64,000 bases of DNA from assembly GCF_030028105.1 (NCBI RefSeq), contig NC_092389.1, positions 31,282,339-31,346,338 of the forward strand. The letters are read 5' to 3'. Both the position numbers and the translations under genes were made by a program. Under the pieces are notes generated by a model. That model was given only the letters and a program-made list of their open reading frames with translations, was not told the origin of the DNA and searched no databases. Position 1 is the stretch's first letter, and each line of letters starts with the position of its first letter. Shown piece after piece: positions 1 through 48,261 of this stretch. This DNA comes from Mobula birostris (taxonomy: Eukaryota).

Positions 1-221
1 TGCAGACTTGACGATAATTTTGATCACACACCTTAAGCAGGTCTTGAGTTCATTGTGATGTTTGCTGACATCATGAAGTGTAACAATGGCATAGCATCAT
101 CAGATGTAACCCCTATACGACCACTTTGGGTACTGTATCAATAGCAGCTTAAATGTACGTAATAACCTGGTGGTTATTATACCTATTAATAGTTTGGTAT
201 CTCATCTACGGATCGGAAGAC

Positions 222-734
222 ATGAGCAGCACAACCACCATCCAAGACATGGACTCCAAGGATCGCAGCAGTTCCAGAGTGATGCAGCCTCCAGGTGGTG
301 AATCCAGTATCTCATTGGGGGTGGAGGAAAATGCCAAACCAGTGCATTCCCGTCCAAGCAAAACCGCATCCAATATCTTTGGGCCACCATTGCAAAATCA
401 ACCTGTGGCTAGAAGAAGGAACCCGCCAGGTGGAAAAAGTAGTGGTATCTTTCAGGCAGCTACCACTGAAACACCTGATCGAAAGCAACGGAGAAATCCT
501 CCTGGTGGCAAGGCAAGTGGCATCTTTGACATTGTGGAAATACCTCCCAAAACTCTGGATATCGCAACTGGGGAAGGTGAAAATAGCCCAGGTTCCTCCG
601 AAACTGAAAACCAAATGGAAGCCCAGGGAAAGAGAGGAGAGTGTGTGCCTGGGCCAGTAGAGTCTGCTCAACCTGAACCAGTAAGGCGCAAGAGAGTCCC
701 ACCTGGTGGATGGTCTACCATTGTGCTGGGGTAA
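222..734 (+). CDS. Jupiter microtubule-associated homolog (HN1/JPT family) protein, intronless, copy 1 (170 aa from the MSSTTT start)
   Basis: The translation has HN1-family hallmarks: MSSTTT..SSRVMQPPGG, ASNIFG, two internal RRNPPGGKxSGIF repeats and C-terminal PPGGWSTIVLG. The ATG at 222 has a purine at -3, and AATAAA lies at 771-776. JPT1 versus JPT2 cannot be resolved by eye. Confidence 0.88.
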   Translation: MSSTTTIQDMDSKDRSSSRVMQPPGGESSISLGVEENAKPVHSRPSKTASNIFGPPLQNQPVARRRNPPGGKSSGIFQAATTETPDRKQRRNPPGGKASGIFDIVEIPPKTLDIATGEGENSPGSSETENQMEAQGKRGECVPGPVESAQPEPVRRKRVPPGGWSTIVLG

Positions 735-770
735 ATCGACTGTTCAGCTCAGTGTATCAGCTGCAGACTG

Positions 771-776
771 AATAAA
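771..776 (+). promoter_or_regulatory. Polyadenylation signal of Jupiter-like copy 1 (copy 2 at 2237-2242)
   Basis: AATAAA 36 nt after the stop codon, followed by T/GT-rich sequence. Confidence 0.6.
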
Positions 777-989
777 CGTTGATTTTATTGCAACCTTAAA
801 ATTTGAGCGTCACCATTTTGTATTGACACTTTATATTTGAAGATTGATTGCGCTTATTAGATAATGCCGCAAACTGCTATTCTTCCCTAATTATGTCACA
901 TGTTTTCGTGTAGTTGCATTACCTCAATTACATTGATTTCATCTACATCACTTGTAAGACGAAAATCATCTTGTTAAAGAATAGTAATT

Positions 990-1279
990 ATCGCACGTTA
1001 TACTTTTAAACTTCTTGTTTTTCCAAGTCTATCTGCTTTTTCAGGTTTTCCTTTTCTTGGATCATAGCCTGCAGTTGTTTACTGAGACCTCGGAGTTCTT
1101 CTTCATTTGCTTCCATGTTTTCATTTTATAATCTGAATGTAGATAGTTCACTTTGCAACAAATTCCTTTTCTTTTTTTATCCTTGTAATAATTTCCTCCA
1201 TTTTCCAATCTCTTTTCCAACTCACGGTTGTTCTTGTCGGGTGCATCTATTTGTTTTTGGAGTTCTGCACATTTACCCT
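990..1279 (-). pseudogene. Decayed coiled-coil ORF of unknown origin (partial second copy at about 2450-2633)
   Basis: With frameshifts it reads KCAELQKQIDAPDKNNRELEKRLE / MEEIITRIKKEKE / LQSELSTFRL*NENMEANEEELRGLSKQLQAMIQEKENLKKQIDLEKQEV. It is E/K/Q-rich with a heptad pattern. Confidence 0.5.
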
Positions 1280-1490
1280 GGGCTTCAACCATAAAATCTG
1301 AGGATTTTCCTTAAGTTCTGAAACATATTTCTTTCATTCTTGACCATTTGCGATAGGTATACTGCCATTAAGATTCCATCTCCCCTGCCTGTGAACTGCT
1401 GGATTCTCCATTCAGCGTTTCTTTGACTTCTTTCCACCTAATTCCTTTAATATCAAGATACTTTTCTGCAGACTTGACGATAATTTTAAT
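1280..1490 (-). mobile_element. I/Nimb-type LINE: ORF1 C-terminus plus decayed start of the ORF2 AP endonuclease
   Basis: The minus strand reads IKIIVKSAEKYLDIKGIRWKEVKETLNGESSSSQAGEMES*, then IANGQE*KKYVSELKENPQIL.WLKPRV. This resembles the NARSLIANGQE...CIQETWLKP start of fish I/Nimb ORF2. Confidence 0.7.
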
Positions 1491-1687
1491 CACACACCTT
1501 AAGCAGGTCTTGAGTTCATTGTGATGTTTGCTGACATCATGAAGTGTAACAATGGCATAGCATCATCAGATGTAACCTCTATACGACCACTTTGGGTACT
1601 GTATCAATAGCAGCTTAAATGTACGTAATAACCTGGTGGTTATTATACCTATTAATAGCTTGGTATCTCATCTACGGATCGGAAGAC

Positions 1688-2200
1688 ATGAGCAGCACAA
1701 CCACCATCCAAGACATGGGCTCCAAGGATCGCAGCAGTTCCAGGGTGATGCAGCCTCCAGGTGGTGAATCCTGTATCTCATTGGAGGTGGAGGAAAATGC
1801 CAAACCAGTGCATTCCCGTCCAAGCAAAACCGCATCCAATATCTTTGGGCCACCATTGCAAAATCAACCTGTGGCTAGAAGAAGGAACCCGCCAGGTGGA
1901 AAAAGTAGTGGTATCTTTCAGGCAGCTACCACTGAAACGCCTGATCGAAAGCAACGGAGAAATCCTCCTGGTGGCAAGGCAAGTGGCATCTTTGACATTG
2001 TGGAAATACCTCCCAAAACTCCGGATATCGCAAATGGGGAAGGTGAAAATAGCCCAGGTTCCTCCGAAACTGAAAACCAAATGGAAGCCCAGGGAAAGAG
2101 AGGAGAGTGCGTGCCTGGGCCAGTAGAGTCTGCTCAACCTGAACCAGTAAGGCGCAAGAGAGTCCCACCTGGTGGATGGTCTACCATTGTGCTGGGGTAA
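1688..2200 (+). CDS. Jupiter/HN1-family protein, intronless, copy 2
   Basis: Same ORF exactly 1466 bp downstream, with no indels and 5 amino-acid differences (D>G, S>C, G>E, L>P, T>N). AATAAA at 2237-2242. Confidence 0.88.
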   Translation: MSSTTTIQDMGSKDRSSSRVMQPPGGESCISLEVEENAKPVHSRPSKTASNIFGPPLQNQPVARRRNPPGGKSSGIFQAATTETPDRKQRRNPPGGKASGIFDIVEIPPKTPDIANGEGENSPGSSETENQMEAQGKRGECVPGPVESAQPEPVRRKRVPPGGWSTIVLG

Positions 2201-2633
2201 ATCGACTGTTCAGCTCAGTGTATCAGCTGCAGACTGAATAAACGTTGATTTTATTGCAACCTTAAAATTTGAGCGTCACCATTTTGTATTGGCACTTTAT
2301 ATTTGAAGATTGCGCTTATTAGATAATGCCGCAAACTGCTATTCTTCCCTAATTATGTCACATGTTTTCGTGTAGTTGCATTACCTCAATTACATTGATT
2401 TCATCTACATCCCTTGTAAGACTAAAATCATCTTGTTAAAGAATAGTAATTATCACACGTTATACTTTTAAACTTCTTGTTTTTCCAAGTCTATCTGCTT
2501 TTTCAGGTTTTCCTTTTCTTGGATCGTAGCCTGCAGTTGTTTACTGAGACCCCGGAGTTCTTCTTCATTTGCTTCCATGTTTTCATTTTATAATCTGAAT
2601 GTAGATAGTTCAGTTTGCAACAAATTCCTTTTC

Positions 2634-3732: not shown

Positions 3733-4519
3733 TTTCCAGTCAGTCGTCTCGACCCATTGCTTCCAACACACACTCCCAGCTCATCTCTCCACGCTCAGCC
3801 AACCAAAACCGCAGCCACAGCCAGGGGCTGAATCCTGAAGGTATTTATGAAGCCAGCCCAAACGTGAATCAGTGGCCTCAACAGAAACTGGGGAAAACTG
3901 GAAAACCTGGAATAAGGAACATGGACCAGACTGTGAATCGGAATGCAGATTTCATGGACCGGACCATGACAAAGAGAGATTATTTCAACAGAACAGAATT
4001 CCAAAGTACAAACATGTTTAGAATTTTGTGCAACTGGAACAATTTGGAATTAAGAGTAAATTATTTTAGATTTTTTTTCTTCCTACTCCACGCATTTCAA
4101 CAGAAAGCTTGCAGATGAAGTTTTCTTTCCATTATAGAGGCAATATATTGGTCGAAGTATTATCTATGCGGTGGAGTGTCTGCATTGTAACATTGATGAA
4201 ATACACACAGAGCCAGTTATTGCCAAGATTCATAAGGAAACAGATGTGAGTGTGGGATGCAAGGAGCAGATGCCAAGCTGACATTTCCCCTTCTTGTGCA
4301 CATGAGCATTCCTAAAGCTCTCAGCCATAAAAACAAAGAAAGGCTTGCTTTTAAATAGCACCGCCAGCATCCAAAGGTGCTTTTAAAGTTAATTAAAGAT
4401 ACTATAATTTAAACTGGTAGACTAAAGCTCACTGCATCTTATGAACCTTTTGAACAGAAGGTGAATGAAATGACACCAATATCCTTCAATGCACTCGTAC
4501 CCACAGACACTATTGTAGG

Positions 4520-4760
4520 TATCAGATCAGCCTTCTGGAAAGCAAACTGAGGGAGGAAGGTATCTGGCTTGGATGGAGTCCTTGGCCAATCCTGTGCAGA
4601 TCAGCTGGCAGAGGTACTTTTTAATCTCTTCAATCTTGCTTTCCCCTTGTACTACCTCAATGTACTTCTGGTTTGAAATTATCTGAATGGATGGCATGAT
4701 AATTAAGTTTTTCTTTGTATCTTGGTATATATGACAATAATAAATCAATGCCAATTCCAG
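4520..4760 (+). mobile_element. Old Rex1/Babar LINE RT fragment
   Basis: Decayed DGV.G..CADQLAEV..FNL motif, similar to about 44640-44720. Confidence 0.5.
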
Positions 4761-4837
4761 TTGATGGAGTTGCACTTGTAATTATTATTATAATGTAAGA
4801 TCCAGAAACCCCGGTAAAACATTTTTGTTGTGATGAA

Positions 4838-4960
4838 GACACAAGACTCTGCAGATGCTGGAAATCTGGAGCAACACCCAAATGGAGGAGGTTAGTGTGT
4901 CAGGCAGCAACTATGGAGGGAAATAGATTGCTGACACTTTGGGTTGATACCCTTCATGGA
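4838..4960 (-). repeat. Penelope terminal-repeat fragment (degenerate hammerhead region)
   Basis: ctgcagatgctggaaatctggagcaacac...ggcagca...acccttcat is the reverse complement of the terminus at 26375-26470. Confidence 0.65.
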
Positions 4961-5484
4961 AAAAAAGGAGATAGCCAATATAAAAAGGTGGGAGAGGGCA
5001 ATAAGTGTCTCCTGGTGAGATTGTGGTGTTGATTTTGAGCCAGGAATCCACTTCTCATCTTCCTTTGCTTTCCTAAGTCATACATTATATCATTGAACTC
5101 AACCCAAAATGGAAAAGGGTGGGAGTGCTGAGGGGTGGATTTATGGTGGGGAGGCTGTTGTTAATGTTCTATCTGAACGTGGTTAAGTGTCAGCTCCAGC
5201 TGTGTTAATGTGTCAGTTCACATTTTGTGCTTAATTCTTTGGAGAGAGGCGGCCAGGTCAGAAAGCCAAGTAAACAACATGAACAAGAGTCTTTTCTTTC
5301 TTCCAGTGCTCTACAGCTGCAATGGGCAACTTACCCTGATGAAAGCAGGGGCTGGTGAGCAGAATGAATGAGACCTGTTCAAATTATCTTCACAACTGTC
5401 AGAGGGCTGCAGCCGAAAGGGGGTCAGTCAAATGCTGGGCAGTAGTTGGTGAATGTGTTGATGCTGTGCCGTGTGCGTGTACAG

Positions 5485-5975
5485 GCGGTGGGCTTATGCA
5501 GCAGGTAGTGCTGCTACCTCACAGCTCCAGGCATGTGGAAATGATTCTGACCCTGGGTTTTCTCTGTAATCCGTTGTCTTTCCTCCAGGCGCTCTGCTTT
5601 GTCTCCACATCCCAAGCAAGTGCTGATAGGTTACTTAGATATTATACATTACTCCTATTGTAGATAAATGATCACAAAGCATGAAATGGAAGCTCACTAG
5701 CAAGGGAAAATCTGCAAATGCTGGAAGTCCAGGCAACACACAAAATGCTGGTGGAACTCAGCAGGCCAGGCAGCATCTATGGAATATCTATGTAAACAGT
5801 CAACTTCTCGGACTGAGACCCTTCATCATTCCTGTGTTGCACAAAATGGAAGTTGGTGGTCATGCATGGGTTTCATGGGTACAGGGCATAAATGGAACCA
5901 AATGGGATGACTGTCCTGAACACAGCCAGGGACGTGATGGACTAAATGGTTTCCTCTGTTATTGTGAGTGTAAGG
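5485..5975 (+). mobile_element. tRNA-derived V-SINE/HE1-like SINE interrupted by a Penelope terminal fragment (about 5700-5830, minus strand)
   Basis: Head gtagtgctgctacctcacagctccagg, core ttcctccaggcgctctgctttgtctccacatccca and CR1-like tail gatggactaaatggtttcctctg. The insert is aaatctgcaaatgctgg...gagacccttcatca. Confidence 0.6.
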
Positions 5976-7254
5976 TAGGATAGTAATGCACAGACCAGTT
6001 CTCCACGGGGCAGTCCCAGCTTCTGATTGCTCACAACCTTGCCCACTATGCAGGCCATGTGAAAATGAGACCAGTCAGGACCAGATGGTCCATTAACCCT
6101 GCTACTCCTTTCAAACAGATATCCCTGCTTGCCCGCCATCTGACCTTTTCTTCACTGTCGGGGGAAACAAGGTGAAAATAGGCTCAGTGCTGGAGGTGAA
6201 ATACTTGTCATCTCGTGACATAGTTGTTGAATTATTATCCACACATCTGACCTGAAGGCATGAGTACGAATCTCAGCATACCACAGCATTGTTTGCGAAC
6301 TCTCTTTGCGAGAAGAATCTGCCAAGGTCTGGGCTATATGTGACTCTAGACCCATTAATGTGGTTGCTTCTTAACTTCCTCCACAATTCAAGGTTAATTA
6401 GGATGGGCAATAAATGCCGAAGGTGATCACATCCCACAAGTAGTTGAAAAGAATGTCCCGGCAACTGAAAAAGTATCAGGAGGTCGTGTCTATATGGTAT
6501 CACATCCTAATTCCTAACTATAACAATCCCTGTGTCAGTCAGGAACTGGCACTGATCTCTTCTAAGCTGTCCACACTAGCTGGCAGGCCATTCAGGTGAC
6601 TTAAGACACCCCAAAGGAGATAAAATGGCTCCCGACGTCCAAGTTATTCCTACTCTTATACAGCATGTAATGCCAGCTCCTACCTGACTCATTAAACTGG
6701 AAGCACCAGCATCTTGTTTGCAATTCATCCCTCTGCCAGTTCTGCAAAGTCAGTGTGGTTCTAAGGTACGTGAGCATTCAGACTGAGTATTGGGGTTCTT
6801 TCTCCAAGAATCATTCTACTAGCTCTTCTTCCATCTACTCTCTCACCCCGCCATAGTCGAAACCCTGTAGTTGGACCAGTGACCTGCACTGTGACAGGAT
6901 TTGTACTGAATGGTGCTATAAATGTGGTTAGCCTGATGTAGTTTTTTTAGAATTGTTGCAAATGAGTGATCTATGTGCAAAGACCACTAAATGCATTTGT
7001 CTCTCAACGTTCCTCAGTATCATTCCCAACTGCAAGGTGTTGGCTCCACAAGCAAGCATGAAAGCCCATTTATCTCAGTTAAATGCTGCTTGACAATGTG
7101 AGGTACACATCCCCAGTTCATATAAATAGTCTTCTGTCATCTAAAACTTCCTTGACAGGCTCAGCAAGGTTAATGAGAAAAACAGTGAGCAGTGGCACCG
7201 GGGGTGGCCCCAAGTGTCATCAGCCTATACCAGACCCATTCAAAGTTTGAATGC

Positions 7255-8741
7255 AGAGGGGATTTAAAATGTCGGTATCTACGGGTGAGGGGCTGGAGGA
7301 TTGGAGGATAGCTCATGTTGTTCCGTTCATTAAAAAAGGCTCTAAAAGTAATCTGGGAAATTATAGGCAGGTAAATTTGACATCGGTAGTAGGTAAGTTA
7401 TTGGAGAGAGTACTAAGAGACAGAATCTACAAGTATTTGGATAGACAGGGACTTATTAGGGAGAGTCAACATGGCTTTGTGCGTGGTAGGTCATGTTTAA
7501 CCAACCTATTAGAGTTTTTCGAGGAGGTTACCAGGAAAGTGAATGAAGGGAAGGCAGTAGATCTTGTCTACATGGACTTCAGAAAGGCCTTTGACAAGGT
7601 CCCGCATGGGAGGTTAGTTAGGAAGATTCAGTCGCTAGGTATACATGGAGAGGTGGTAAATTGGATTAGAGATTGGCTCAATGGAAGAAGCCAGAGAGTG
7701 GTGGTAGAGAATTGCTTCACTGAGTGGAGACTTGTGACTAGTGGTGTGCCATAGTACTGGGTCCATTGTTATTTGTCATCTATATCAATGATCTGAATGA
7801 TAATGTGGTAAATTGGATCAGCAAATTTGCTGATGAAACAAAGAGTGGACAGTGAGGAAGGTTTTCAAAGCATGCAGAGGGATTTGGACCAGCTGGAAAA
7901 ATGGGCTGAAAAATGGCAGATGGAGTTTAATACAGATAAGTGTGAGGTATTATACTTTGGAAGGACAAACCAAGGTAGAACATACAAGGTAAATGGTAAG
8001 GCACTGAGGAGTGCAGTAGAACAGAGGGATCTGGGAATACAGATACAAAATTCCCTAAAAGTGGCGTCACAGGTAGATAGGGTTATAAAGAGAGCTTTTG
8101 GTACATTGGCCTTTATAAATCAAAGTATTGAGTATAAGAGTTGGAATGTTATGGTGAGGTTGTATGAGGCATTGGTGAGGCCGAATTTGGAGTATTGTGT
8201 TCAGTTTTGGTCACCAAATTACAGGAAGGATATTAATAAGGTTGAAAGAGTGCAGAGAAGGTTTACAAGGATGTTGCCGGGACTTGAGAAACTCAGTTAC
8301 AGAGAAAGGTTGAATAGGTTAGGACTTTATTCCCTGGAGCATAGAAGAATGAGGGAAGATTTGATAGAGGTATATAAAATTATGATGGGTATAGATAGAG
8401 TGAATGCAAGCAGGCTTTTTCCACTGAGGCAAGGGGAGAAAAAAAACAGAGGACATGGGTTAAGGGTGAGGGGGGAAATGTTTCAAGGGAACATTAGGGG
8501 GGGCTTCTTCACACAGAGAGTGGTGGGAGTGTGGAATGAGCTGCCAGATGAGGAGGGAAATGCGGGCTCACTTTTAACATTCAAGAATAACTTGGACAGA
8601 TACATGGATGGGAGGTGTATGGAGGGATATGGTCCAGGTGCAGGTCAGTGGGACTAGGCAGAAAAATGGTGCAGCACAGCCAAGAAGGGCCAAAGAACCT
8701 GTTTCTGTGCTGTAGTTTTTCTATGGTTCTAATGTTCTATG
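7255..8741 (+). mobile_element. CR1 LINE, 5'-truncated ORF2 reverse transcriptase plus 3' tail
   Basis: Motifs NYRQVNLTSVVGKLLE, QHGFVRGRSCLTNL, YMDFRKAFDKVPH, SGVP, LVRPNLEYCVQFWSP and WNELP. The tail is (ttctatg)-like. Confidence 0.95.
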
Positions 8742-8914
8742 GGATTAAATGAAAGAATCTCTCATTCTGCAGTGTGGCTCTCCCACCACAGTTCCTTGTT
8801 TCCCAGTCTCCTAAAAAGCCCTGTCAGTGAGCAGGCTTGCCTGGAAGCCTGTGTGGTGTTACCCAGTGCCCTGTCCCTGGACAAGGTGAGATAGCAGCTT
8901 GAAAAGGAAATGCA

Positions 8915-9290
8915 GATCAGATCAGACTTATTTATCACATGTACTGTAGATAGTAAAACATGCAGTGAAACACATTGTTTCCACTAACAACCAACACATT
9001 AAAGGATGTGCTGTGGAGAGCCACCAAGTGTCACCACCCATTCTGGCGCCAACATAGCATGCCCACAATGTTCAACACAACAATAGCACAACACACAGCA
9101 CACAGCAACATTAGCAGCATCATCAACAATAACAGAATGAAACAAGACAACAGCAGCAAAACAAGACCCTTCCCACCTTCACACACCCAAGCCTCTAACC
9201 CCAGGGCAGATCACCTTCAGGCCTCCATCCCTTGGCCCCGGACTCTGAAACTCGCAGACAAACTGCCACAGCTTACCACTAAGACAAGCC
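8915..9290 (-). repeat. Non-autonomous interspersed repeat with (TCTGA)n tail; related copies at about 13135-13330 (minus) and 42090-42385 (plus)
   Basis: The block atttatcacat..aaacat..gaaacacatt.ttt.ca.taacaaccaaca is shared among the copies. Confidence 0.55.
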
Positions 9291-22575: not shown

Positions 22576-25500
22576 CCCTATGAAGGTCATGTTGACAATC
22601 AACCACCTACTTACAGTATATTAATCCAATTTTATTCTTCCAAATTTTCATCAGCTCCCCCCACAGATTCTACCAAAGACTTACACACTGGAGGCAATTT
22701 ATTGTAGTTAATTAGCATACCAACCTGCACATGTTTGGAGTGTGAGAGAAAACCAGAAACTTATAAAGTTGTGAGAAGAACATGCAAGTTCCATGGAAGC
22801 AGCGCCAGAGTTCAAGACTGAACCTGAATGACTGGAGATGTGAGGTAGCAGATCTAACTAACTACACCAATGTTACTTCTTTCTCCACAGTTGCTGTCTT
22901 ACCTAGTAGGTATTTCAAACACTTGCTATGTTTGTTTGACTAATTGTCTGTTCTCCATTCCCTGTTTTACGTCTGGATAATGAGATGAAAGTTTAACCCC
23001 AATACATTTGAGACAAGATCTGGTTATGATACATTTACAGGGATGAGAGGATTCATTTGCATCTGAGAAGTTGATTCAGAATATATAGGAGGTTGCCTGT
23101 AACATTTTGGAATGCAACACATTGGTAATTTAAGACATTACTTGTGGCAAGTATATCATTTCAAATTGAGTTTGTTGTCATGCACAAGTGCAGTGAGGTA
23201 CAGGCACAATGAAAAACTTGCTTGCTGCAGTATCACAGACACATAATTTCAGACTCCACACAGAATATAAATTATACATAAGACCATAAAACATAGGAGC
23301 AGAATTAGGTCATTTGGCCCGTCAAGTCTGCTCTGCCATTCAATCATGGCTGTTCCTTTTTTTCCCCTCTTCAGCTCCACTCCCCAGCCTCCTCCCTGTA
23401 ACCTTTGATGCTGTGTCCAATCATGAACCTATCAAGCTCTGCCTTAAATATACCCAACAACCTGGCCTCCACAGCTACCTGAGGTAATAAATTCCACAAG
23501 TTCACCACCCTCTGGCTGAAGAAATTTCTCCACATCTCTGTTTTAAATGGATGTCCCTCTACCCTGAGGCTGCACCCTCTTGTCCTAGCCTCTCCCACCA
23601 TGGAAACATCCTTTCCACATCTACTCTGTCTAGGCCTTTCAACATTTGAAAGGTTTCAATGAGATCCCCCCTCATCCTTATAAATTCCAGTGAATACATA
23701 CCCAGAGCTATCGAACGTTCTTTTTATGATAACCCTTTCATTCCTGGAATCATCCTTCTGAACCCTCTCCAATGCCAGCACATCTTTTCGGAGATGAGGA
23801 ACCCAAAACTGTTCACAATACTCAAGGTGAGGCCTCACCGGTGCCTTATAAAGCCTCAGCGTCATATCTTTGCTCTTGTATTCTAGACCTCTTGAAATAA
23901 ATACTAACATTGAATTTGCCTTCCTCACCACTGACTCTACCTGCAAGTTAAACTTTAGGATCTTCTGCACAAGGATTCCCAAGATCCCTTACATCTCAGA
24001 TTTTTGGATTTTCTCCCCATTTCGAAAATTGTTTGCACATTTATTTCTACTCCCAAAGTGCATGAACATGCATTTTCCAAAATTGTATTTCATTTGCCAC
24101 ACTCTTGCCCATTTCCCTAATCTGTCTAAATCCTTCTGCAGCCTACCTGATTCCTCAACACAACCTGCCCATCCACTATTTTCTGCGTCATCTGCAAACT
24201 TGGCAACAAAGCCATCTATTCAATCATCTAAGTCATTGATATACAACATAAAAAGAAGCAGTCCCAACACCGATCCCCGTGGAACACCACTACTCACTGA
24301 CAGCCAACCAGAAAAGGATCCTTTTATTTCCACTTGCTGCCTCCTACCATGCTCTACAATGCTCTACAATGCCAATAACATTCTTGTGATACCATGGGCT
24401 CTTAACTTGGTAAGCTGCCTCATGTGTGGCACCCTGTCAAAGGCCTTCTGAAAGTTCAAATATACAACATCCACTGCATCCCCTTTATCCTACTTGTAAT
24501 CTCCTCAAAGAATTCCAACAGTTTCATCAGGCAAGATTTTTCCTTAAGGAAATCCTGCTGACTTTGTACTATCTTGTCTGTGTCACCAAGTACTCCATAA
24601 TCTCATCCTTAACAATGGACCCTAACATCTTACCAACCACTGAGGTCAGGATAACTGGTCTATAATTTCCATTCTGCTGCCTTCCACCTTTCTTAAAGAG
24701 TGGAACCCTAGGGTGCCGTTCATCTGGTCCGGGTGACTTATGTACCCTTAGGTCTTTCAGCTTTTTGAGCACCTTCTCCTTTGTAATAGCAACTGCACTC
24801 ACGTCTCTTCCCTCACGCTCTTCAACATCTGATACACTACTAGTGTCTTCCACGGTGAAGACTGATGCAAAATACTCATTTAGTTCATCTGCCATCTCCT
24901 TGTCCCCTATTATTATTTGTCCAGCCTCATTTTCTAGCAGTCCTATAACCACTCTCATCTCTCTTCTATTTGTTTACATACTGGAAAAAGCTTTTACTCT
25001 CCACTTTGATATTGTTTGCTAGCTTGCTTTCATATTTCATCTTTTCCCTCCTAATAATTTTTTTAGTTGCCTTCTGTAGGTTTTTAAAAGCCTCCCAGTC
25101 CTCTGTCTTCCAACTATTTTTTGCTTTGTTGTATGCCCTCTCGCTTGCTTTTACATTAGCTTTGACTGCCTTTGTCAGCCATGGTTGCACTATTTTGCCA
25201 TTTGAGTATTTCTCAGTTTTTGGAATACATCTATCCTGCACCTTCCTCATTTTTCGCAGAAATTCAAGCCATTTCTGCTCTGCTGTCATCCCTGGCAGCA
25301 TCTCCTTCCAACTTACTTTGGCCAATTTCTGTCTCATACCACTGTAATTTCCCTTACTCTACTGAAATACTGCTCAGACTTTACTTTCTTCCTATCAAAT
25401 TTCAAGTTGAACTCAATCATATTGTGATCTCTGTCTCCTTAGGGTTCTTTTACCTTAACCTCCCTGATTGCCTCCAGTTCATTCCATAAGACCCAATCCA

Positions 25501-25583
25501 GTATAGCTGATCCCCAGGTAGGCTCAGCGACAAGGCACTCTAAAAAGCCATCTTGTAGGCATTCAACAAACTCACTCTCTTGA

Positions 25584-26470
25584 AGATCGCAAAGATCGCA
25601 AGATCTTACATCTGCAGACCCCAGAGCCTGCTGGCCCTGACGCTAGCAGGCATGGACTTCAGATTGCGGCCTCTGCCATTAATCTCGCCAGCTGCAACAC
25701 CTCAGGGTATATTCAAAACCCGGACTCCAGCAACGACCATGGACACCTTCAAAGCGTTTGTGCAACCACCAGCTGCGACTCCAGCCTTGAACTCCAGGCC
25801 GGGTCTTTATGTGCTGCTATTGTGACTCCCGTCTCCCCTTCCCCCACCACCACTCTGCAACCCCGTCTCCCTCAGATCCCGCCGTCAGCTTCTGGGCCCT
25901 CAGAGGCTCCATCTTCCTCTCACTCCAACCCTCCCCTCTCCACTGACACCCACAGCCTCTCCCCTCCCCCCTCTGATCCCAGCTCTCATCTGTGCCGGGT
26001 CTTTACCATCCCCTCTGACCTTCAACTGTCTGAGGCAGGACGCTCTGTTCTCAGTAAGGGCCTCACCTTTGTCCTCCTTTGCGCATACCTCAGTGAGTTC
26101 CGTATACGTCATGACATGGAACTCTCCTTCCGCCGTCTCCGTCTCTGAGCCTACTTCTTTGGCAAGGACTCTTCCACCCCCACCGATGACCCCTTCTCCC
26201 GTCTTCAACCCTCCTTCTCTTCATGGACACCCCACTCTGGTCTTCTGTCTGCTCAGGATCTCTTTATTGCTAACTGCCAATGGGACATCAACCGTCTCGA
26301 CTTCACTGCACCTCGTTCCCATTCCAACCTTACTCCTTCCGAACGCTCTGCTCTCCACTCCCTCCGCACTTATCCAGTCCTGACGAAGGGTCTCGGCCCG
26401 AAATATCGACTGTACCTCTTCCTAGAGATGCTGCCTGGCCTGCTGCGTTCACCAGCAACTTTGTTGTGTG
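25584..26470 (+). mobile_element. Internally deleted Penelope-like element (N-terminal domain joined to terminal repeat)
   Basis: Encodes LSEAGRSVLSKGLTFV...FRRLRL. Flanked by a 12-bp direct repeat tcactctcttga (25572-25583 and 26471-26482). Confidence 0.85.
26375..26412 (+). ncRNA. Minimal type-I hammerhead ribozyme motif in a Penelope terminus
   Basis: Stem I CAGUC/GACUG; core CUGACGA plus an extra A; stem II GGGU-CUCG-GCCC; GAA; palindromic stem III AUAU; cleavage C at 26407. Confidence 0.72.
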
Positions 26471-29259
26471 TCACTCTCTTGAGATCCATACCAACTTAAT
26501 TTTCCCAATCAACCTGCATGTTGAAATCTCCCATGAGTATCATAACATTGCCGTTTTGACACACCCTTTCTATTTCCCGTTGTAATCTGTTGTCAACATC
26601 CCAGGCACTGTTGGCATATCTGTATGTAACTGCTTCAGGATCCTTTTACCCTTGCAGTTTCTTCACTCAACCCACAAGGATTCAACTTCTTCCAATCCTA
26701 CTCAAATTACACCAGACAGTGAAGAAAAATACTGTGCAAAATAAGACATTAGCCCAAACAAAACACAACCAGAAAACACCTATGGTAGTGCAAGAGGTGG
26801 TCCATAGTGTTCTGTTGTTGAGGTAGGATTAGAGTTGTGCAGGTTCATTCAAGAACCTTTTGAGTTATTTTGAATAATTAAGAGGGGCAGATGATTTCGA
26901 AAGTGGTCCATAAAATTCTCTACTAGTGGAATTTATGTCCCTTGGGGTCTGGATCCGTTAAGTTGAAGATTGATTGCCAGAATTTCTTAACAGCTAACAC
27001 CCAAGGTAGTTGAAGGCAAACAAGATGAGCTATGATATCTTCTAGTGAGTCAATTCCCGAACCAACTTGTTTCACTGATTAATTAGTGAATTAAAAAGTG
27101 AACTGTGCATAAAGAGCAGTGCAAATCTACAGAGTGGCATTTGGAATTTGGTTAAAGTGAAATTCAGATAGGAGGAGAAAGAGGAAACCACTAGGCAACA
27201 GCAAATATTAAAGAAAATCTGAATTATTGATTTAATCAAATGGGACATATTAAGCAAACTAATGAGACTGCTGAGGCATGTTGTCTGTATTTCTTGTGCA
27301 CTCCAGAGTAACTGTGGATGCAGAAATGCTCGTGTTGCTTGAAAAACAACTTAAATCATTTCAGGGCAGGAAAAGCAGATTAGTAATAAGGAAACTCTTT
27401 TGGTGCGTGAAATAAGGGCTTTTAAAAGCCTCCGTGTAAATGCTAAATGTATTAAGTGAAAGATGCATATTTATCAGTTGCTATTCTGAATATTTAAAAT
27501 CTGGGAAATGTGGTTCAATATTAACCTTGAATTGACGGAGTCTGTGCATTGCAATATTTTCATCTCAGTTTATTGGGAGGGACATAGCAAATTGAAAATA
27601 GTTTCGAGAGGAACTGGAGATGAAGAAAAGAAATATAATTATTGGAAGGGCTATTATTAAAATTTCTTTGAATCATAAAATATAATGTGTAGCTGAAGAT
27701 TACTCAATTTAACAGGGAAGATGCATCTTATAAGAAATGATAAGTGTCCTTGAAGAAATGATGACAAATATCAGATATGGCTGATGAAAAGTAAAAATCT
27801 GATTTAAAATATCAAAACACGTGGAATAAAGAATTGTGAACAGGTGCAGTGGAAGCAAGAAAATTATTTCATTAATGCCAGGTGATGGAAAGTAATTAAG
27901 AACAAGTCAGGATAGGCTGAGGACTCTGATATAAATAAATACATTACAGCTGTGTAATATTGGAAATGATGCCAAGGTGCAGTAGTCATTGTTAGACATG
28001 TCATCGGACCAATTCCACTGGAGTAAATGCTTCCATATGAATTGATCATAACCAGGATTAAGTTGCTTGAAGTTAATTGGGCAGATGGCTTGATAGTACT
28101 TATCTCAGAGCACAAAATGAAATGGAAGATGCCCTACAGAAGTCAAGATCAATGAAATCAAGATCAAAAGCGAATTGGAGATGACAGCAGCCATTCAGCC
28201 CCTCTTAATTCATCTCTTCAGAGGGATTCTAATGTCCCATCCTCCAATCCTTTCCCTGTTGTAGTATTTATTTTCCCCTTAATGAGAGCAAATTTTTGTC
28301 CTTCTGGTGATGATGATAACTTTTTAATGTTGGCCTAACATGTTTGTAAGCTACTTCCCTTTGTCCTGCTCCTAGCCATCACATCATAATCTCAAGTAAT
28401 AAGGTTGAGTATTTTTGGAGTTAAGAGAGTACAATTATGATTCACAAAGTAACTTGATAATGGTATATGAGGTTCTTAATGAAAAAGGAAAAAAATAACA
28501 TGCATTATTACTTTAAATGAAAGTACAAGAGGAGAAATCAGGGTAATGAAAAACCTTTACATCTTAGTGATTAGAACCGGATTTAACCATATACTATATT
28601 CTGCTCTTTTGACTACTCTGGTTCAACGTCTTTAGCAATGAGTCTGTTCAGACTCCTACAGTCTCTTTGTTTCATCCTTTGTATTTCTACACAGGGTGCT
28701 TGTTCCAATGTGTTACATTTTATAATTACATATATTACATTTCATCAGCAGTGATCTTGCAGATTTGCAAATCCTGTTCAACTCGCGTTATAATTCCTAG
28801 AATCCTTCCCTAATTGTAATTTATTTCTCTGTCTGGTATCATCTGCAAAGCTGACCGTTTTCCATTGGATTTCCAAACCAATTCTCTGAATGAGAAGCAG
28901 AATTCCTCCCACCACCTTTTACTGAATCTAACTCTACCTTTAGATGGTTTTCTCTATATTCCCAGCTTTGAATTTAATTAATAGACATCAGGGACAGACC
29001 ATCACAAAAGACCTGTTTTGGCTCGTTATTTCCTAGGTGAAACTGATATTGTTTCTGCTAGTGTTGTACAGAAGACCCTCAAGCCTATTTCTGGTAATAA
29101 TTACATGGCCTCAGAATTTGTGCTCATTGGGAAGTTACCCTCACCTCCGAAGAAAGACCACACTCCTTTTGCAGGAGTTTACTGAAAGAAACTGGTCTGG
29201 AACTCTGTGGCGAATATTTTAAGGGTACAGTGGCTAAATTCACGGTCTAAGAATCTGGA

Positions 29260-29929
29260 GACATCCCCTCTCCTCTGACACCACCAGCCCTCTTTCCCCC
29301 TTCAATCCGAGCTCTAATCTCTACCATGTCATCACCATTCTCTCCAACCTCCCCCTCTGTGAGTTAGAACATTCTGTCCTCAGCAAGGGCCATACCTTTG
29401 TTACCCCTTCGCATGAACCTCAGTGAGTTCCATGCCAACTACGACGCTGATCTCTTCTTCCATCGCCAAGCCCACTTCTTATCCAGAATTTCCCACCCCA
29501 TACCAATGACCCCTCTTCTTGTCTTCAACCATCCTCCTCTTCTTGGACATTCCACTCTGGTTCTGTGCCTGCTCTGGACCTTTTCATCTCTAATTGCCGA
29601 TGAGACATCAACCGGCTCAACTTCAGTACTCCTCTTCGTCCTTAAACCTTACTCCCCCTGCTCACACTTCACCCCTCACTCTCTCTGCATCAATCCCAAC
29701 CTTATCATCAAACCTACAGGCATAGGGGGTGTTGTTGTAGAGTGGCGCACTGACCTCTACTTTGATGAGGCCAGCTGGCAGCTCTTGGACACTTCCTCTT
29801 GCTTACCCCTTGAAAAGACCCCACACCACGCCATCAGAACATAGTCTCCAACACTATCACTAACCTCATCAACTCTGGAGATCTCCCATTCACTGCCACC
29901 AAACTCATAGCTCCCTTGCCTTGCACTAC
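29260..29929 (+). mobile_element. Penelope-like element, 5' part (continues at about 33470)
   Basis: SVLSKG..F.P, IIKP..GG.VV.WRTDLY and LINSGDLP.TA.KLI motifs. Homologous to about 25980-26370. Confidence 0.8.
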
Positions 29930-32834
29930 CAGGGGCGTATCTACAGAAAATAGCGCCTATGGCAAGCACTGAAATTACGCCCCTGTCCAAACATCTGACA
30001 CCCATCTTTGATATAGCTTTACCATAATATCAGCTCAAAAATACAAGTCAAGCTCATTAATCTTTTAATTAATAAATTATGGTACTACATGAAAATTATA
30101 ACTGCACCTTCCTTGCTTTCACTGATGCAAATTGGTCTATGATGTGATCAAAGTCAGTTTTTTCAGTTTCTTCTCTTTCTACACTCAGCAGAGCAAGATC
30201 ACAGAGTCTGCCTTGACCCGTGGAGGCTTTCAAATACAAAAGTATTAGCTTTAACTTGCTGAATGATCTCTCACAGCTGGCGATGGAAACTGTGATGGTT
30301 AGCATTATCTGAATAGCAATGCGAAGATTGGGGAAGACACTCTCATCTCCATACTGAACCATAAGTTCAAGAAGCTCTTCAGGTCTTGATATTTTCATGT
30401 TAACCCGCCTTGATAGCAACATTCTGCAATCCAAAATTTCTTCATATATGCTGCCGTCCATCAACATCAGAGCTGTACAATTCGCCCAAATTTTCGCACT
30501 TCTTCTTTAGGTCGTTACTGTCGGCGCTGTAACACAGTCCCTCGACATTGAGAAGGAACCCAAACTTGGTATCAGTGTCTGCAAACGAGTGAATCTTTCG
30601 TCCATTTCTCTGTGAAGACGGTCAAGTGTTCCCTTCATGACTCTTTCCATTTCCTCCTTAGCTGTTAACCCAGCGTCTCTCGAGTTCTCATCAGCCATTC
30701 GTTTTTTCCGTCTCTGACGCCTTTCAACTTCAATATTCCATTCTTGAAGGAGACCGACTCCTTCTTCGAGTGACTCACTGACCAGCACTTCTCTTTCATC
30801 ATAAAAATGATTTCGGAGGGCTTTCAAATTCAGGGCAGCATCATGGATGTTCATGCTAGGATCCTGCAGCCTCTTTCGAATACGGTCAATGCGAATGAGT
30901 ACTTTGTTCCAAAATCCTAGCAAAATCAGAAACTCGTAACTCAACATGAGGTTGTACAGCTGCCTTGCATCACTTCTTGTTTCACTGGTCTTATTTTCAT
31001 TGTCTATCATGTCCTGGAGAACTTGAAGTATCTCCTCAAGGTACTTGACGGGCTTCACTGCTTCTGTCCTTGTACTCCACCTGGTTTCGGACTCCAACTT
31101 ACCAACCACAGACACAGCTTTTTTGAGTTTTTCCCAGCACTGTGTCGAAAGAGAGAAAAACATGTAGACAGCTTTGATGGTTCCAAAAAACGTGACCATC
31201 ACTGTATCCTGCTTGGCTGCATGTACACCCACCAAGTCAAGTGAGTGATTGTCGCAATTCACAAGCACTGCCAGGTTGTTTTTCTCACTTATTCTTTGAT
31301 GAACACCACCTCTGTGTCCAGCTATCACAGCAACATTGTCATAGCACTGTGACCGACAATCTTGTAGCTCCATTTCGTCCTTCTCTAGCTGTTTCAAGAT
31401 GTCTTCAACCAGGCTGTCAGCATCCTTCTGGCTTATAAAACCAAGGAAGGACTCTCCAACATGGACTGTTTTCCTCTCAAAATCAACTTCCACATACTTC
31501 ACTACTTCTGACATCTGCTCATGGTGTGCCTGATCAGGAGTTGAGTCGAACGTGAGACCACAGTACTTGGCTTTATGAATGCTTCTCAGTAAACTCTGGC
31601 AAACAGTGGATGCCATCATGTGGATGAATTCATTCTGGACACCCGGTGAAAGATAAGACGTGGATCCAGGATGACTTTCCAAATGAATGAGGTGTTCTTT
31701 TATGACAGGCTCAGTGATGGCCTGTAGTTTCAGTAAGCCAAGGAAATTTCCCACATTGGAGTCATCGTCTAGCTGAAGTGACTCCCTGTGTCCTCACAAA
31801 ACCAGGTTCTGAGTCACAAGGAATTTTATGCAGTGAAAGATTCTCGTCAAGATATCACGCCACTTCTGCTTTTCCTTCTCAATCTGTGACTGAAATACCG
31901 TGTCAATAACTCCTGTTTCCAGCTAAATTTCTTTCCATTTCTTTCCACTGTGTGAAGCATTCCTGATGATTCTTGGCATTTTCATGAACTCTAATCCTTT
32001 CAGGTGCTTTCCACTGGTTGAATCCACTTTCCTGCTCCAATGAGGATTGATGGTCTGACCGGGAATAGAGAAGACAACAGATACAAAATGCAGACTTTTT
32101 AGAAGGGGAATAGACCAGCCATGAGCAAGTCACTTCCTCACCATGGCCATTTCCCAATTTCCTCCTGAACCAAGTTTTGTTCATTGAGCGGTTATTTGTT
32201 GGTAGGAAAGGCCCCTCACTGTTCTGAAAATACTTTGAACCCAGCTTTATTATTTCTGTTCTCAACGCGTCAGGCAGAATTGCTTTTCCAGTATCCTTGT
32301 CGAACTTCACAAGTCCAATGTCACGCTGTGCAATCACTTCTGGCATGACAGTTCGAGGCTCTTTGACACCACTCAGTTCACTAGGTTCAGTCGTCAGGTT
32401 CAATCTCGTCAGGTAAAATCTCGTCAATAAACTCAACATCACCACCTCCACCATCATCTTCCCCTCCTGTCCGCGTTCTCTGTGGCAGCCTCACTCTTAA
32501 TCTCGTCATACTCGGATTTACCTGACTTGACTTCCTCCTTGGCTTGTGATATATTTGTACTTGATCCACCTTCGGATTCTAACAAACTTGTAGCAGGTGC
32601 AGGCGACTCCATGGAATGTGTCGAACTACTTGTACCGGGCATTTCAAAGAAGGGCATGAAGAACTTGCTCGGCTTCTTGGCTTCCTCCGCCTCCAACTTT
32701 CGTTTCTTCCTTCCTTCAGCTCCACTTTCCTTCTTCTTTATGAAGAAACATTTCATTGTCTTCTTACACAATGCTCTGAAATAAGGCCAATCTAGCGCTT
32801 TTCACCCATGAAAATCAAAGACAGATCATACATC
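29930..32834 (-). mobile_element. hAT DNA transposon (Tip100/ZMYM1-like), with a near-complete transposase pseudogene at 30096-32771
   Basis: TTF-type zinc finger WLVYSPSKKSAFCICCLLY, GNFLGLLKL, DSTPD..H.EQ, SQCYDN, ETRWS and hATC domain FPNLRIAIQIMLTI.VSIASCERSFSKLKLI. There is a terminus caggggcgtatcta at 29930 and several frameshifts/stops. Confidence 0.92.
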
Positions 32835-39719: not shown

Positions 39720-41490
39720 AATTTGAATTAGAAGGCCATTCCACTCATGGCCATTCTTATCCTTCAGCACCTCTTGCCTGCGCTAAACCCATTACATTTT
39801 ATTTGCAGAATATTGAAAAACCTACCTGTTCCTTTCTTAAATGTTCTCAGTACTGACTCTCCACTGCCCTTTTAGGTAAAATATTCCATAGATCCACCAA
39901 TTTCTATTCTGAAGTTAACATCCTGCCTTCAAAATCTAACCTCTAGTTCTAAGCCTCCCAGCCAGGAGAAGAATTGAATTCACATCTACCCTGTCAAGCT
40001 TCTTCAGAATTTGTAGTTCAATGAGAATAGTACCCAATTTTCCAACCTCTTGGACATAGTTTAGTCTCTTCTCATGGACAATCTTCTTCTTCAAGGAATC
40101 AAACTGATGAGCCTTTGTTGCTTGCTCTCTTGTGCAAGTACATCCACCCTCAGGTAGACCTGAATGGCATATTCTCACCAGGGCTCAATGTAATTGCAGC
40201 AAAATACTTTACAATTGCATACAAATCCTTCTTCAGAGAAGAACAACATATCATCTGTTTTCCTAATTGCTTGCTGTCTCTGAATGTTAACTTCAAGTGA
40301 TTTGTGTACAATGACACAAACACGAGGAAATCTGCAGATGTTGGAAATTCAAGCGACACACACAAAAAATGCTGGTGAACGCAGCAGGCCAGGCAGCATC
40401 TATAGGAACAGGTACGGTTGACGTTTCGGGCCGAGACCCTTTGTCAAGACTAACTGAAAGAAGAGATAGTAAGAAGAAGAGATAGAAGAGATAGTTACTA
40501 TCTCTTCGTTCAGTTAGTCCTGACAAAAGGTCTCAGCCCGCAATGTCAACTGTACCTCTTCCTAGAGATGCTGCCTGGCCTGCTGTGTTCACCAGCATTT
40601 TATATGTGTGTTGCTTGTATATAATGACACTTAGATCTCACTGAAAAGTGTTCAGCCTTTAACTATTTAAATAATACTCGACCTTTCTATGTTCTCTACA
40701 ATGTGGATGGGCTTCTTTTCACCACAATGTATCATATTTACCATATATTTTCCCGTTTGCTGAAATTCACTTATATCTCCTGCTTCCTTCACTGACTGCC
40801 ATCTGGGCTTGCACCATCAACAAACTTGGAGATATCACACTTAGCCTCTTTAACTAATCATTGATAAACATTGTGAGCAGCTGAGGCCCGAGATAGATCT
40901 TTGCAGCACCCTACCTCTGAACTCCAAAATGTAGCATTTAATCCAACAGTCTATTTTCTATGTCCTTTCACCAGTCTTTGTTCCTCTGGAGTATTCTGAT
41001 CTCCTGTGGCGTAATTTTGTTAGTATTAAAGGTTCGCTGAAGTTTTATCCATTCATTCACCCATATCTATTTAGCTACGTACAAGCTGAAAAATCTTTAA
41101 CAAAGATGTTCAAAGTGATTTCTCTTTCATAACTTTCTGTTCACTCTGCCCCATTCTATTAATGTTTTCTAAGTGCCTTGTTAGCACTTTATTAATAACT
41201 GATTCTTGTGTTTTCCTTCAGCAGATTTCAGGCTAATTTGCCTATAGCTCTTTGGTTTCACTCTCCCCTTTATCGTGCAACTTTAATTACAGCTTTCTAA
41301 GGTCTGGGAAATGTTCTTGAGTGTCTGGAATTCTGGAAGGTGACAATGAATGCAACCACTATCTCCATCGCCACCTTATTCAGAACGTCAAGGTCACCAG
41401 ATCCTGTGATTTTGAAAATCTGTTTCATTAATTTGTCATCCGCACCAACTCCTGATTTTCTCAATGTGTGTATAGATTAAGGTCCCCCAT
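39720..41490 (-). mobile_element. Old CR1 LINE
   Basis: Minus-strand remnants ILKKLDRVD...RLRTRG, FVDGA.L and YRQISL.S. Confidence 0.65.
40318..40615. mobile_element. Palindromic element made of two inverted Penelope terminal repeats
   Basis: About 40350-40472 is the reverse complement of about 40496-40617. The 15-bp TSD is tgtgtacaatgacac / tgtatataatgacac. Confidence 0.85.
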
Positions 41491-47250: not shown

Positions 47251-47741
47251 TACACTCAGTGGCCACTTTATTCACTCATTAATGCAAATATCTATTCAGC
47301 CAATCATGTGGCAATTCAATGCACAAAAGCATGCAGACATAGTCAAGAGGTTCTGTTGTTATTCAGAACAAACATCAGAACTGGGAAGAAAGGTGACCTA
47401 AGTGACTTTGACCATGAAATGATTGTTGGTGCGAGATGGGGTGGTTTGAGTACCTCAAACTGCTGGTTTTTTTCACATACAACAGTCTCTAGAGTTTACA
47501 GAGAATGGTACAAAAAACAAAAAAACATCAAGTGAGCGGTTGTTCTGTGGGAGAAAATGCCTTGTTAATGAGAGAGGTCAGAGGAGAAGGGCCAGACTGG
47601 TTCAAGCTGACAGTATCTCTGAATGCACAACATGTTGAACCTTGAAGCGAATGGGCTACAGCAGCAGAATACTATGAACATACACTCAGTGTCCACTTTA
47701 TTAGGTACAAGAGGTACCTAATAAACTGGCCACTGAGTGTA
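47251..47741 (+). mobile_element. Deleted Tc1-like transposon; related minus-strand copy at about 53510-53846
   Basis: TIRs tacactcagtggccactttatt / aataaactggccactgagtgta. Transposase N-terminus GKKGDLSDFDHEMIVGARWGGLS..FSHTTVSRVYREW. Confidence 0.88.
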
Positions 47742-48261
47742 TGTTGGTATGTTGTGAAATTTGCTCTTATGAGTCAATGGGCTAAAGGGCTTGTTTCCTT
47801 GCTGAAGCACAGGAATACAAGTATTTCTGGCTGGCCTTTCTATCTGGAGTTGTAGGTCCTTCCACTGACAGGCACAATGGTACTGGTTTATTTGGTGACT
47901 GTTTATTGCAGCAAAGATCAGGTTTCCAGTGTGTGGCTCATTCCGTGAGTCCAGTGGATGGGTTTGTCAATAATTTAGCCATCCTGCATCAAAGCAGTAT
48001 GGCACATGGATCTAAGTAACTGACTGCCTCTTTCAAAAAACCCACATGCTCAAGACTCTGGTCTTTAACAAGGTGCTACAATGCAGCATTGGTGTAAAAG
48101 TAATTGAACTTCTCAGAAAATCATAATAAGCTGCATGATAAATAATGGGGTTACATAATGTTTGACACTGTCTGAGAGTAGGAATGTGCCATACCATGCC
48201 CTTAGGGCTTTTTGAAGTGAAAGCTCGGTGACTACCTTTGATGATGCATCTCTCTTCCCAT

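What the first reader, a model, noticed from the sequence alone, without database searches (positions are those of the whole stretch)
26375..26412. Minimal hammerhead ribozyme with a palindromic stem III in a Penelope terminus
Seen: a perfect 5-bp stem I (CAGUC/GACUG), CUGACGA, an extra A, a 4-bp stem II, then GAA-AUAU-C. Other copies have GAA-ACGU-C; both stem III sequences are self-complementary with no loop, so folding would need a dimer. Established: Penelope-like elements carry minimal type-I hammerheads in their terminal repeats, and an extra A after A9 is tolerated in a viroid hammerhead. The ACGU>AUAU change could be covariation or simply CpG decay on both strands.
Basis: partly seen in the sequence, partly recalled or inferred. 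Interest (0 to 1): 0.7.

Follow-up and report, generated by a model that had tools for sequence, protein, structure and literature searches.

The report
Decayed hammerhead in deleted Penelope copy
These 38 bases are a real copy of the small hammerhead RNA motif already described in Penelope-type jumping genes, but this copy sits in a broken insertion, and its unusual AUAU stem is most likely ordinary mutational decay rather than a compensating change.

Summary
The motif is present as described and matches the published minimal hammerhead of Penelope-like elements. It belongs to a Neptune/Nematis-type family with at least 24,345 near-identical copies in this 4.0-Gb genome. That is 4.7-fold below independence. 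ATAT copies are scattered over all sub-lineages and more diverged than average. This fits two-step CpG decay, not covariation; a 1.7-fold residual excess is unexplained. The fifth C-G pair of stem I is accidental: the C comes from a deletion junction, and the family has U·G there. The copy is an 883-bp insertion in an old LINE, lacking 2.1 kb (RT, endonuclease), with no nearby partner, so it is likely inert. Two other loci share the junction and carry ACGT and ACAT. The junction lies at the ribozyme's front edge, where genomic 5' ends cluster (12 of 75), rather than at the cut site (2 of 75). Earlier scan notes reported this class and that clustering on other DNA. Cleavage is untested.

The parts
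26375..26412 (+). Minimal type-I hammerhead motif (stem I 26375-26379/26408-26412; core 26380-26386; extra A 26387; stem II 26388-26399; GAA 26400-26402; predicted cut after C26407)
   Evidence: Sequence; descriptor vs resampled windows; match to published consensus
26403..26406 (+). Loop-less stem III word ATAT; family state is ACGT, so this is a double transition at one CpG
   Evidence: Genome counts; controls
25589..26375 (+). N-terminal piece of the Penelope-like ORF (residues about 173-434 of the 1014-aa open frame of L129), 5'-truncated, with an in-frame stop at 26146-26148
   Evidence: 90.6% identity over 787 nt to L129; translation
26375..26376 (+). Junction of a 2,102-nt internal deletion (RT, endonuclease and 3' UTR missing); the right break is 32 nt upstream of the predicted cut; same junction at two other independent loci
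26413..26471 (+). Rest of the terminal repeat, ending at the first of the family's two common 3' ends (about +63 to +72; the other is about +101)
25573..25588 (+). Left copy of the target-site duplication (16 nt)
   Evidence: flanks overlap by about 15 nt in uninterrupted copies of the host LINE
26472..26486 (+). Right copy of the target-site duplication (15 nt, one base shorter)
24400..26700 (-). Older, decayed LINE into which the element inserted (bounds approximate; 'CR1-type' is a recalled label)
   Evidence: Left and right flanks both match in 14 held loci and are contiguous or nearly so in most

Best explanation
This is the minimal hammerhead motif of a very abundant Neptune/Nematis-type Penelope-like retrotransposon, carried here by an internally deleted 883-bp insertion that is likely inert, and its AUAU stem III most likely arose by two successive mutations of one CpG after insertion. 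Shown: the motif, the parent element, the deletion, the target-site duplication and the copy counts. Inferred from the literature: in the parent, the ACGU palindromes of two motifs would pair to form helix III, giving slow, possibly protein-assisted cleavage after C17. Inferred from genomic ends: many inserted copies were made from uncut RNA that likely starts at the motif's front edge. The deletion is best read as reverse transcriptase leaving the template at that edge and resuming inside the ORF. Predicted for this copy: AUAU pairs with itself about 3.3 kcal/mol more weakly than ACGU, would mismatch with the family's ACGU, and has no neighbouring partner.
For: Counts in one fixed 35-nt context: 24,345 total; ACGT 18,679; ACAT 2,743; ATGT 2,295; ATAT 71, against 337 expected under independence. 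A control CpG in loop II also shows double hits (30 against 5,354 singles). The 30 ATAT loci examined (of 71) fall on several backgrounds (12 C and 18 T at position 11.1; several upstream variants) and are more diverged than 30 unselected loci (67/1204 vs 39/1290, p 0.002). Palindrome-keeping double transversions are not favoured: AGCT 0, AATT 3, against ATTT 8, ATCT 4 and AACT 12, the last likely one amplified copy. The two sister loci with the same deletion read ACGT and ACAT. Parent: 1014-aa open frame with RVT_1 (E 1.4e-4) and C-terminal GIY-YIG (E 0.003), both below Pfam's curated cut-offs, and a C-X4-C-X2-C linker in 10 of 10 EN regions printed. 5' ends of 75 loci with a terminal repeat running into the ORF: 12 at -33 to -23, 6.3-fold over background; 2 within 2 nt of the cut, 0.76 expected. 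Energies.
Against: ATAT is 2.5-fold commoner relative to singles than the loop II control (p 1.3e-5) and 1.7-fold above a simple two-step model (71 vs 42; loop II 30 vs 34), so a few ATAT source copies or a wider context effect cannot be excluded. AUAU is a family consensus in other species (coelacanth, C. remanei), so it can be a working state. The hot-spot bin was chosen after seeing the first 30 loci, so its p value (9e-7) is optimistic, and 40 of 75 loci extend beyond -77. No compensatory pair change was found between the two sub-lineage groups, so structure-level selection rests on conservation alone.
Confidence: 0.85

Rival explanations
1. ACGU>AUAU is a compensatory change selected in an active sub-lineage to keep the dimer helix.
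For: The word stays palindromic; there is a residual 1.7- to 2.5-fold excess of ATAT; AUAU is a consensus state in other species' families. Five other CpGs in this copy's terminal repeat are intact.
Against: 0.3% of copies, 71-fold outnumbered by palindrome-breaking singles; spread over all backgrounds; more diverged; sister deletion copies differ. The only close ATAT pair in the list is an inverted 99.6% duplicate, not a tandem.
Confidence: 0.06
2. The motif no longer cuts in this lineage and is kept as a promoter, RNA-start or protein-binding element with a hammerhead shape.
For: Genomic 5' ends gather at the front edge and not at the cut. The youngest copies carry G10.1·U11.1. The ACGU monomer is predicted to pair core GACG with CGUC, an inactive fold. 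In the anole element, ribozyme mutants did not affect insertion in vitro, and no RNA-seq ends were seen at the cut site (PMC11167929).
Against: All core positions and the palindrome are unchanged between young and older groups while the flank drifts. G·U at 10.1-11.1 occurs in published families. The anole motif does cut when its protein is added. Earlier scan notes report rare joints at the cut site (not independent evidence, only partly checked here).
Confidence: 0.25
3. This copy has been co-opted by the host as a working ribozyme.
For: Intact core and a slightly stronger stem I than the family.
Against: No same-strand intact partner nearby (nearest relatives 10.5 and 11.8 kb away are damaged); the adjoining ORF piece is 7.6% from the majority, the most diverged of 31; intact cores are common among thousands of young copies.
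Confidence: 0.03
4. Chance match to a short descriptor.
For: No Rfam hit; fold z-score -1.13.
Against: 0 hits in 150 resampled windows; fixed position in the terminal repeat of a Penelope-like element, as published.
Confidence: 0.01

Closest known systems
Minimal hammerheads (min-HHR) in pseudo-LTRs of metazoan Penelope-like elements (Cervera and De la Pena 2014, PMC4209133)
   Same: CUGANGA + extra H, G10.1-C11.1, GAAA, palindromic loop-less helix III, NUH cut site, 4-5 bp helix I, U-rich 5' side in the family; mostly single motifs in truncated copies.
   Different: Helix II is 4 bp (7-8 bp in the Schistosoma examples). No cartilaginous fish is listed in the supplement file searched (file 1 could not be searched). 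Copy number (over 24,000 in one strict context) exceeds the 4,000-9,000 reported for coelacanth and Xenopus.
Neptune/Nematis-type EN+ Penelope-like elements (Craig et al. 2021, PMC8557442)
   Same: Single ORF with RT, C-X2-5-C-X2-C linker and C-terminal GIY-YIG; partial tandems, inverted 5'-truncated copies, optional 30-40 bp tail.
   Different: This copy lacks RT and endonuclease. Neptune versus Nematis was not resolved (no tree).
Poseidon element of Anolis (Frangieh et al. 2024, PMC11167929)
   Same: Hammerhead near the pLTR-ORF junction; two 3' ends a tail-length apart; uncut RNA as the main template.
   Different: Other clade (no linker Zn finger). In Anolis the ORF begins inside the hammerhead; here the likely start codon is about 140 nt downstream of the cut.
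Non-LTR retrozymes (bioRxiv 10.64898/2026.07.22.740005)
   Same: Non-autonomous, hammerhead-bearing derivatives of Penelope-like elements.
   Different: Retrozymes are defined there as tandem repeats with at least two units; this is a solo 883-bp deletion derivative keeping a piece of ORF, found at 3 independent loci.

Membership tests
Minimal type-I hammerhead of PLEs | Core CUGANGA ... GAAA ... UH | tested here: met
Minimal type-I hammerhead of PLEs | Unpaired nucleotide between 9 and 10.1, and G10.1-C11.1 pair | tested here: met
   A26387; G26388-C26399. The youngest relatives have G·U instead.
Minimal type-I hammerhead of PLEs | Palindromic positions 15.1-16.1 with no loop 3 | tested here: met
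   ATAT here; ACGT in 18,679 of 24,345 family copies
Minimal type-I hammerhead of PLEs | Located in the pseudo-LTR of a PLE | tested here: met
   Same place at the 3' end of 10 of 10 long-ORF loci, and upstream of the ORF in tandem-junction loci
Minimal type-I hammerhead of PLEs | Compensatory changes among consensus families | tested here: inconclusive
   Young vs older majority differ at 2 of 37 motif sites and 15 of 57 flank sites; conserved, but no compensatory pair seen; ATAT is not one
Minimal type-I hammerhead of PLEs | Self-cleavage as a dimer or with protein help | not testable with these tools
   Needs in vitro assay; genomic 5' ends show no clear peak at the cut (2 of 75)
Neptune/Nematis-type EN+ PLE (parent element) | RT followed by C-terminal GIY-YIG endonuclease in one ORF | tested here: met
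   L129: RVT_1 at 575-691, GIY-YIG at 940-978, both below curated cut-offs; motifs
Neptune/Nematis-type EN+ PLE (parent element) | C-X2-5-C-X2-C motif in the RT-EN linker | tested here: met
   10 of 10 EN regions printed from 9 loci
Penelope/Poseidon clade | Absence of the linker Zn-finger motif | tested here: not met
   Motif present; my first guess of Poseidon was dropped
Non-LTR retrozyme | Tandem units, each with a complete hammerhead | tested here: not met
   Solo copy with a target-site duplication

The most novel reading that the evidence does not exclude
The 883-bp unit is the fossil of a strong-stop-like template jump. Reverse transcription starts in the tail just downstream of an uncut hammerhead, runs off the RNA's 5' end at the ribozyme's front edge, and jumps to a second template position; here it mis-jumped into the ORF and founded a tiny non-autonomous lineage (3 loci). 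If such jumps are a normal step, they would explain how Penelope pseudo-LTRs and partial tandems form, and the hammerhead would mark the RNA start rather than define the template's end.
Probability: 0.25. Interest if true: 0.55.

Novelty: new member of a known kind. Interest (0 to 1): 0.17.

Why it matters
As a ribozyme catch it is ordinary: the class is published and the scan has met it many times. The useful result is negative and quantitative. A palindrome-preserving CG>TA change in a methylated genome can look like covariation and here is not, so copy-level covariation in such repeats needs a CpG control. The shared deletion junction at the ribozyme's front edge adds one data point on the open question of what Penelope hammerheads do and where the template RNA starts.

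Tried and rejected
Rfam scan: no hammerhead family at E<=1. Pfam on this copy's two ORF pieces: nothing. Poseidon assignment: rejected by the linker motif. Splicing as the cause of the deletion: the family has a branch-point-like word, a pyrimidine tract and AG just upstream of the motif, but the deleted segment starts TA and ends TT, no GT[AG]AG donor lies in the 430 nt upstream, and no GT..AG joint is among those shown (28 more joints not shown). Microhomology at the deletion: none at the exact junction. A tandem ATAT pair on contig C30: it is an inverted 99.6% duplicate. L117 dropped as a 99.6% duplicate of L116. Sequencing runs: no RNA holder listed; laid runs were contigs only and gave no start, end or orthologous-site information. 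Lunse et al. 2016 is not held; known here only by title and a review passage. The search 'Penelope, Neptune, hammerhead, shark' found 0 papers; subscription journals and Repbase/Dfam were not searched, so this is no proof of absence from print.

Full report
Observation. A strict descriptor finds this one site in the window and none in 150 resampled windows. Rfam has no matching family. Seven more diverged copies lie in the window; 2 read ACGT, 1 ACAT, 3 ATGT and 1 otherwise.

What carries it. The window lies in a 4.01-Gb genome; the organism was not determined here. Upstream of the motif is a piece of ORF. A protein search with it returned 150 scored matches, many in long open frames. [quoted passage not shown] The window's insert, 25589-26471, is ORF positions 2949-3735 of L129 joined directly to the terminal repeat at 5838, a 2,102-nt deletion. 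It is flanked by a 15-16 nt duplication and interrupts an older LINE whose other copies run on across the site. C26375 comes from the ORF side, so the fifth Watson-Crick pair of stem I is incidental; the family has U·G there. A pattern for the junction finds 4 places, 3 independent. Their stem III words are ATAT, ACGT and ACAT. All three share minor states at 8 ORF sites, which are linked and also occur in about 25-45% of other copies. A small lineage copied in trans is likely, but a recurrent deletion is not excluded.

Covariation or CpG decay. Exact counts in one 35-nt context: 24,345 with any two letters, ACGT 18,679, ACAT 2,743, ATGT 2,295, ATAT 71. Independence predicts 337. At the loop II CpG, doubles are 30 against 5,354 singles. 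A two-step model using context rates from 357 alignments of held copies predicts 42 and 34, so loop II fits and stem III is 1.7-fold high. The model ignores age spread among copies, and I cannot explain the residual. Thirty of the 71 ATAT loci were read: they fall on several backgrounds and are more diverged downstream than 30 unselected loci (67/1204 vs 39/1290; rows with over 8 mismatches from indels were left out). Doubles with a pyrimidine in the second place number 27: ATTT 8, ATCT 4, AATT 3, AACT 12 (7 clustered on one contig, 5 on small contigs), AGCT 0. Doubles AA and GA were not counted. Palindromes are therefore not favoured. Across species both ACGU and AUAU are consensus states (PMC4209133 supplement file 2, part 2 of 3), so covariation exists at that level, but not in this family.

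Conservation. Among 57 young copies in randomly placed and ORF-selected stretches plus the window, non-CpG core sites change as often as the flank (9/482 vs 60/2870), as expected after insertion. Between 46 young and 37 older rows the majority differs at 2 of 37 motif sites (N7 and 11.1) and 15 of 57 flank sites, which points to selection on source elements. Only two groups were compared.

Where copies begin and end. A pattern for the terminal repeat running into the ORF gives 196 places; 90 were read, and 15 were set aside because the ORF continued for under 200 nt. Of 75, 12 begin 33 to 23 nt upstream of the cut, none between -76 and -34, 2 within 2 nt of the cut (both inversion joints), and 40 extend past -77 (one duplicate pair left in). 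In 600 kb of arbitrarily placed stretches plus the window, 9 of 37 young copies begin at -36 to -21 (including this one) and none within 4 nt of the cut. An initiator-like word (recalled motif) sits at -36; D. virilis Penelope has an internal promoter with an initiator (PMC2377424, passages). The deletion's right break is at -32. Contigs of two other runs also show joints ending at that base (source type unknown). 3' ends cluster near +63 to +72 and +101, matching the two-start tail described for the anole element (PMC11167929, parts 1-2 of 4).

Mechanism. Shown: anatomy and counts. From the literature: minimal hammerheads do not cut as monomers and cut weakly as dimers (PMC4209133, parts 1-2 of 4; review passages, PMC6765202); the anole motif needs its protein and is not needed for insertion in vitro; the extra A has a viroid precedent (PMC3705267, passage); an AUC triplet, which this copy now has, is rare in natural hammerheads (PMC1636495, abstract). 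Predicted here: in a toy duplex AUAU is 3.3 kcal/mol weaker than ACGU, and the ACGU monomer prefers a fold pairing the core with the cut-site strand. Inferred: this copy is inert, and its deletion arose when RT left the template at the RNA's front edge.

Comparison and verdict. It meets every sequence feature of the published class; activity is untestable here. It is not a retrozyme by the tandem definition (bioRxiv 10.64898/2026.07.22.740005, part 1 of 5 and passages; its supplements are closed and may list related families). Earlier scan notes describe the same class in at least 7 genomes and the same front-edge clustering in this genome. I had reached the clustering before reading them, and they prompted the clade test. 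New member of a known kind, low interest; the covariation idea is not supported.

Noticed in passing
L129 reverse strand 5864-5870 region; The youngest, long-ORF copies carry U at hammerhead position 11.1 (G10.1·U11.1 wobble): 30 of 46 young rows, far more than the 2 with the opposite-strand decay product, so it is a sub-lineage state.
   Followed up: partly
family upstream of the motif, e.g. L012, L046: A branch-point-like word, pyrimidine tract and AG lie directly before stem I, as at the intron end of D. virilis Penelope; no donor or spliced form was found.
   Followed up: partly
L216: Another chimera: ORF sequence up to L129 position 2947, a few T/A bases, then the terminal repeat from -32. 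The window insert and L116 both begin at 2946-2949, just at a pyrimidine-tract-AG word in the ORF.
   Followed up: partly
window 40347-40620: Head-to-head inverted pair of terminal-repeat stubs of the same family, the layout typical of Penelope insertions.
   Followed up: no
window 29270-29930: A second, older and more decayed piece of the same kind of ORF, 78% identical to 26177-26314; it runs on past the point where the focal copy is deleted.
   Followed up: no
G000:C17:106.0-111.4 Mb and five small contigs: Twelve copies share a non-palindromic AACT stem III, likely one copy amplified by segmental duplication.
   Followed up: no
window 47678-47744: Near-perfect hairpin matching Rfam mir-9256 below its gathering score on both strands; likely a small inverted-repeat transposon.
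   Followed up: no
L132, L133, L135: Three long copies share an internal duplication in the proline/serine-rich part of the ORF.
   Followed up: no
window 1-2607: About 1.46-kb direct duplication at 98% identity at the start of the window.
   Followed up: no
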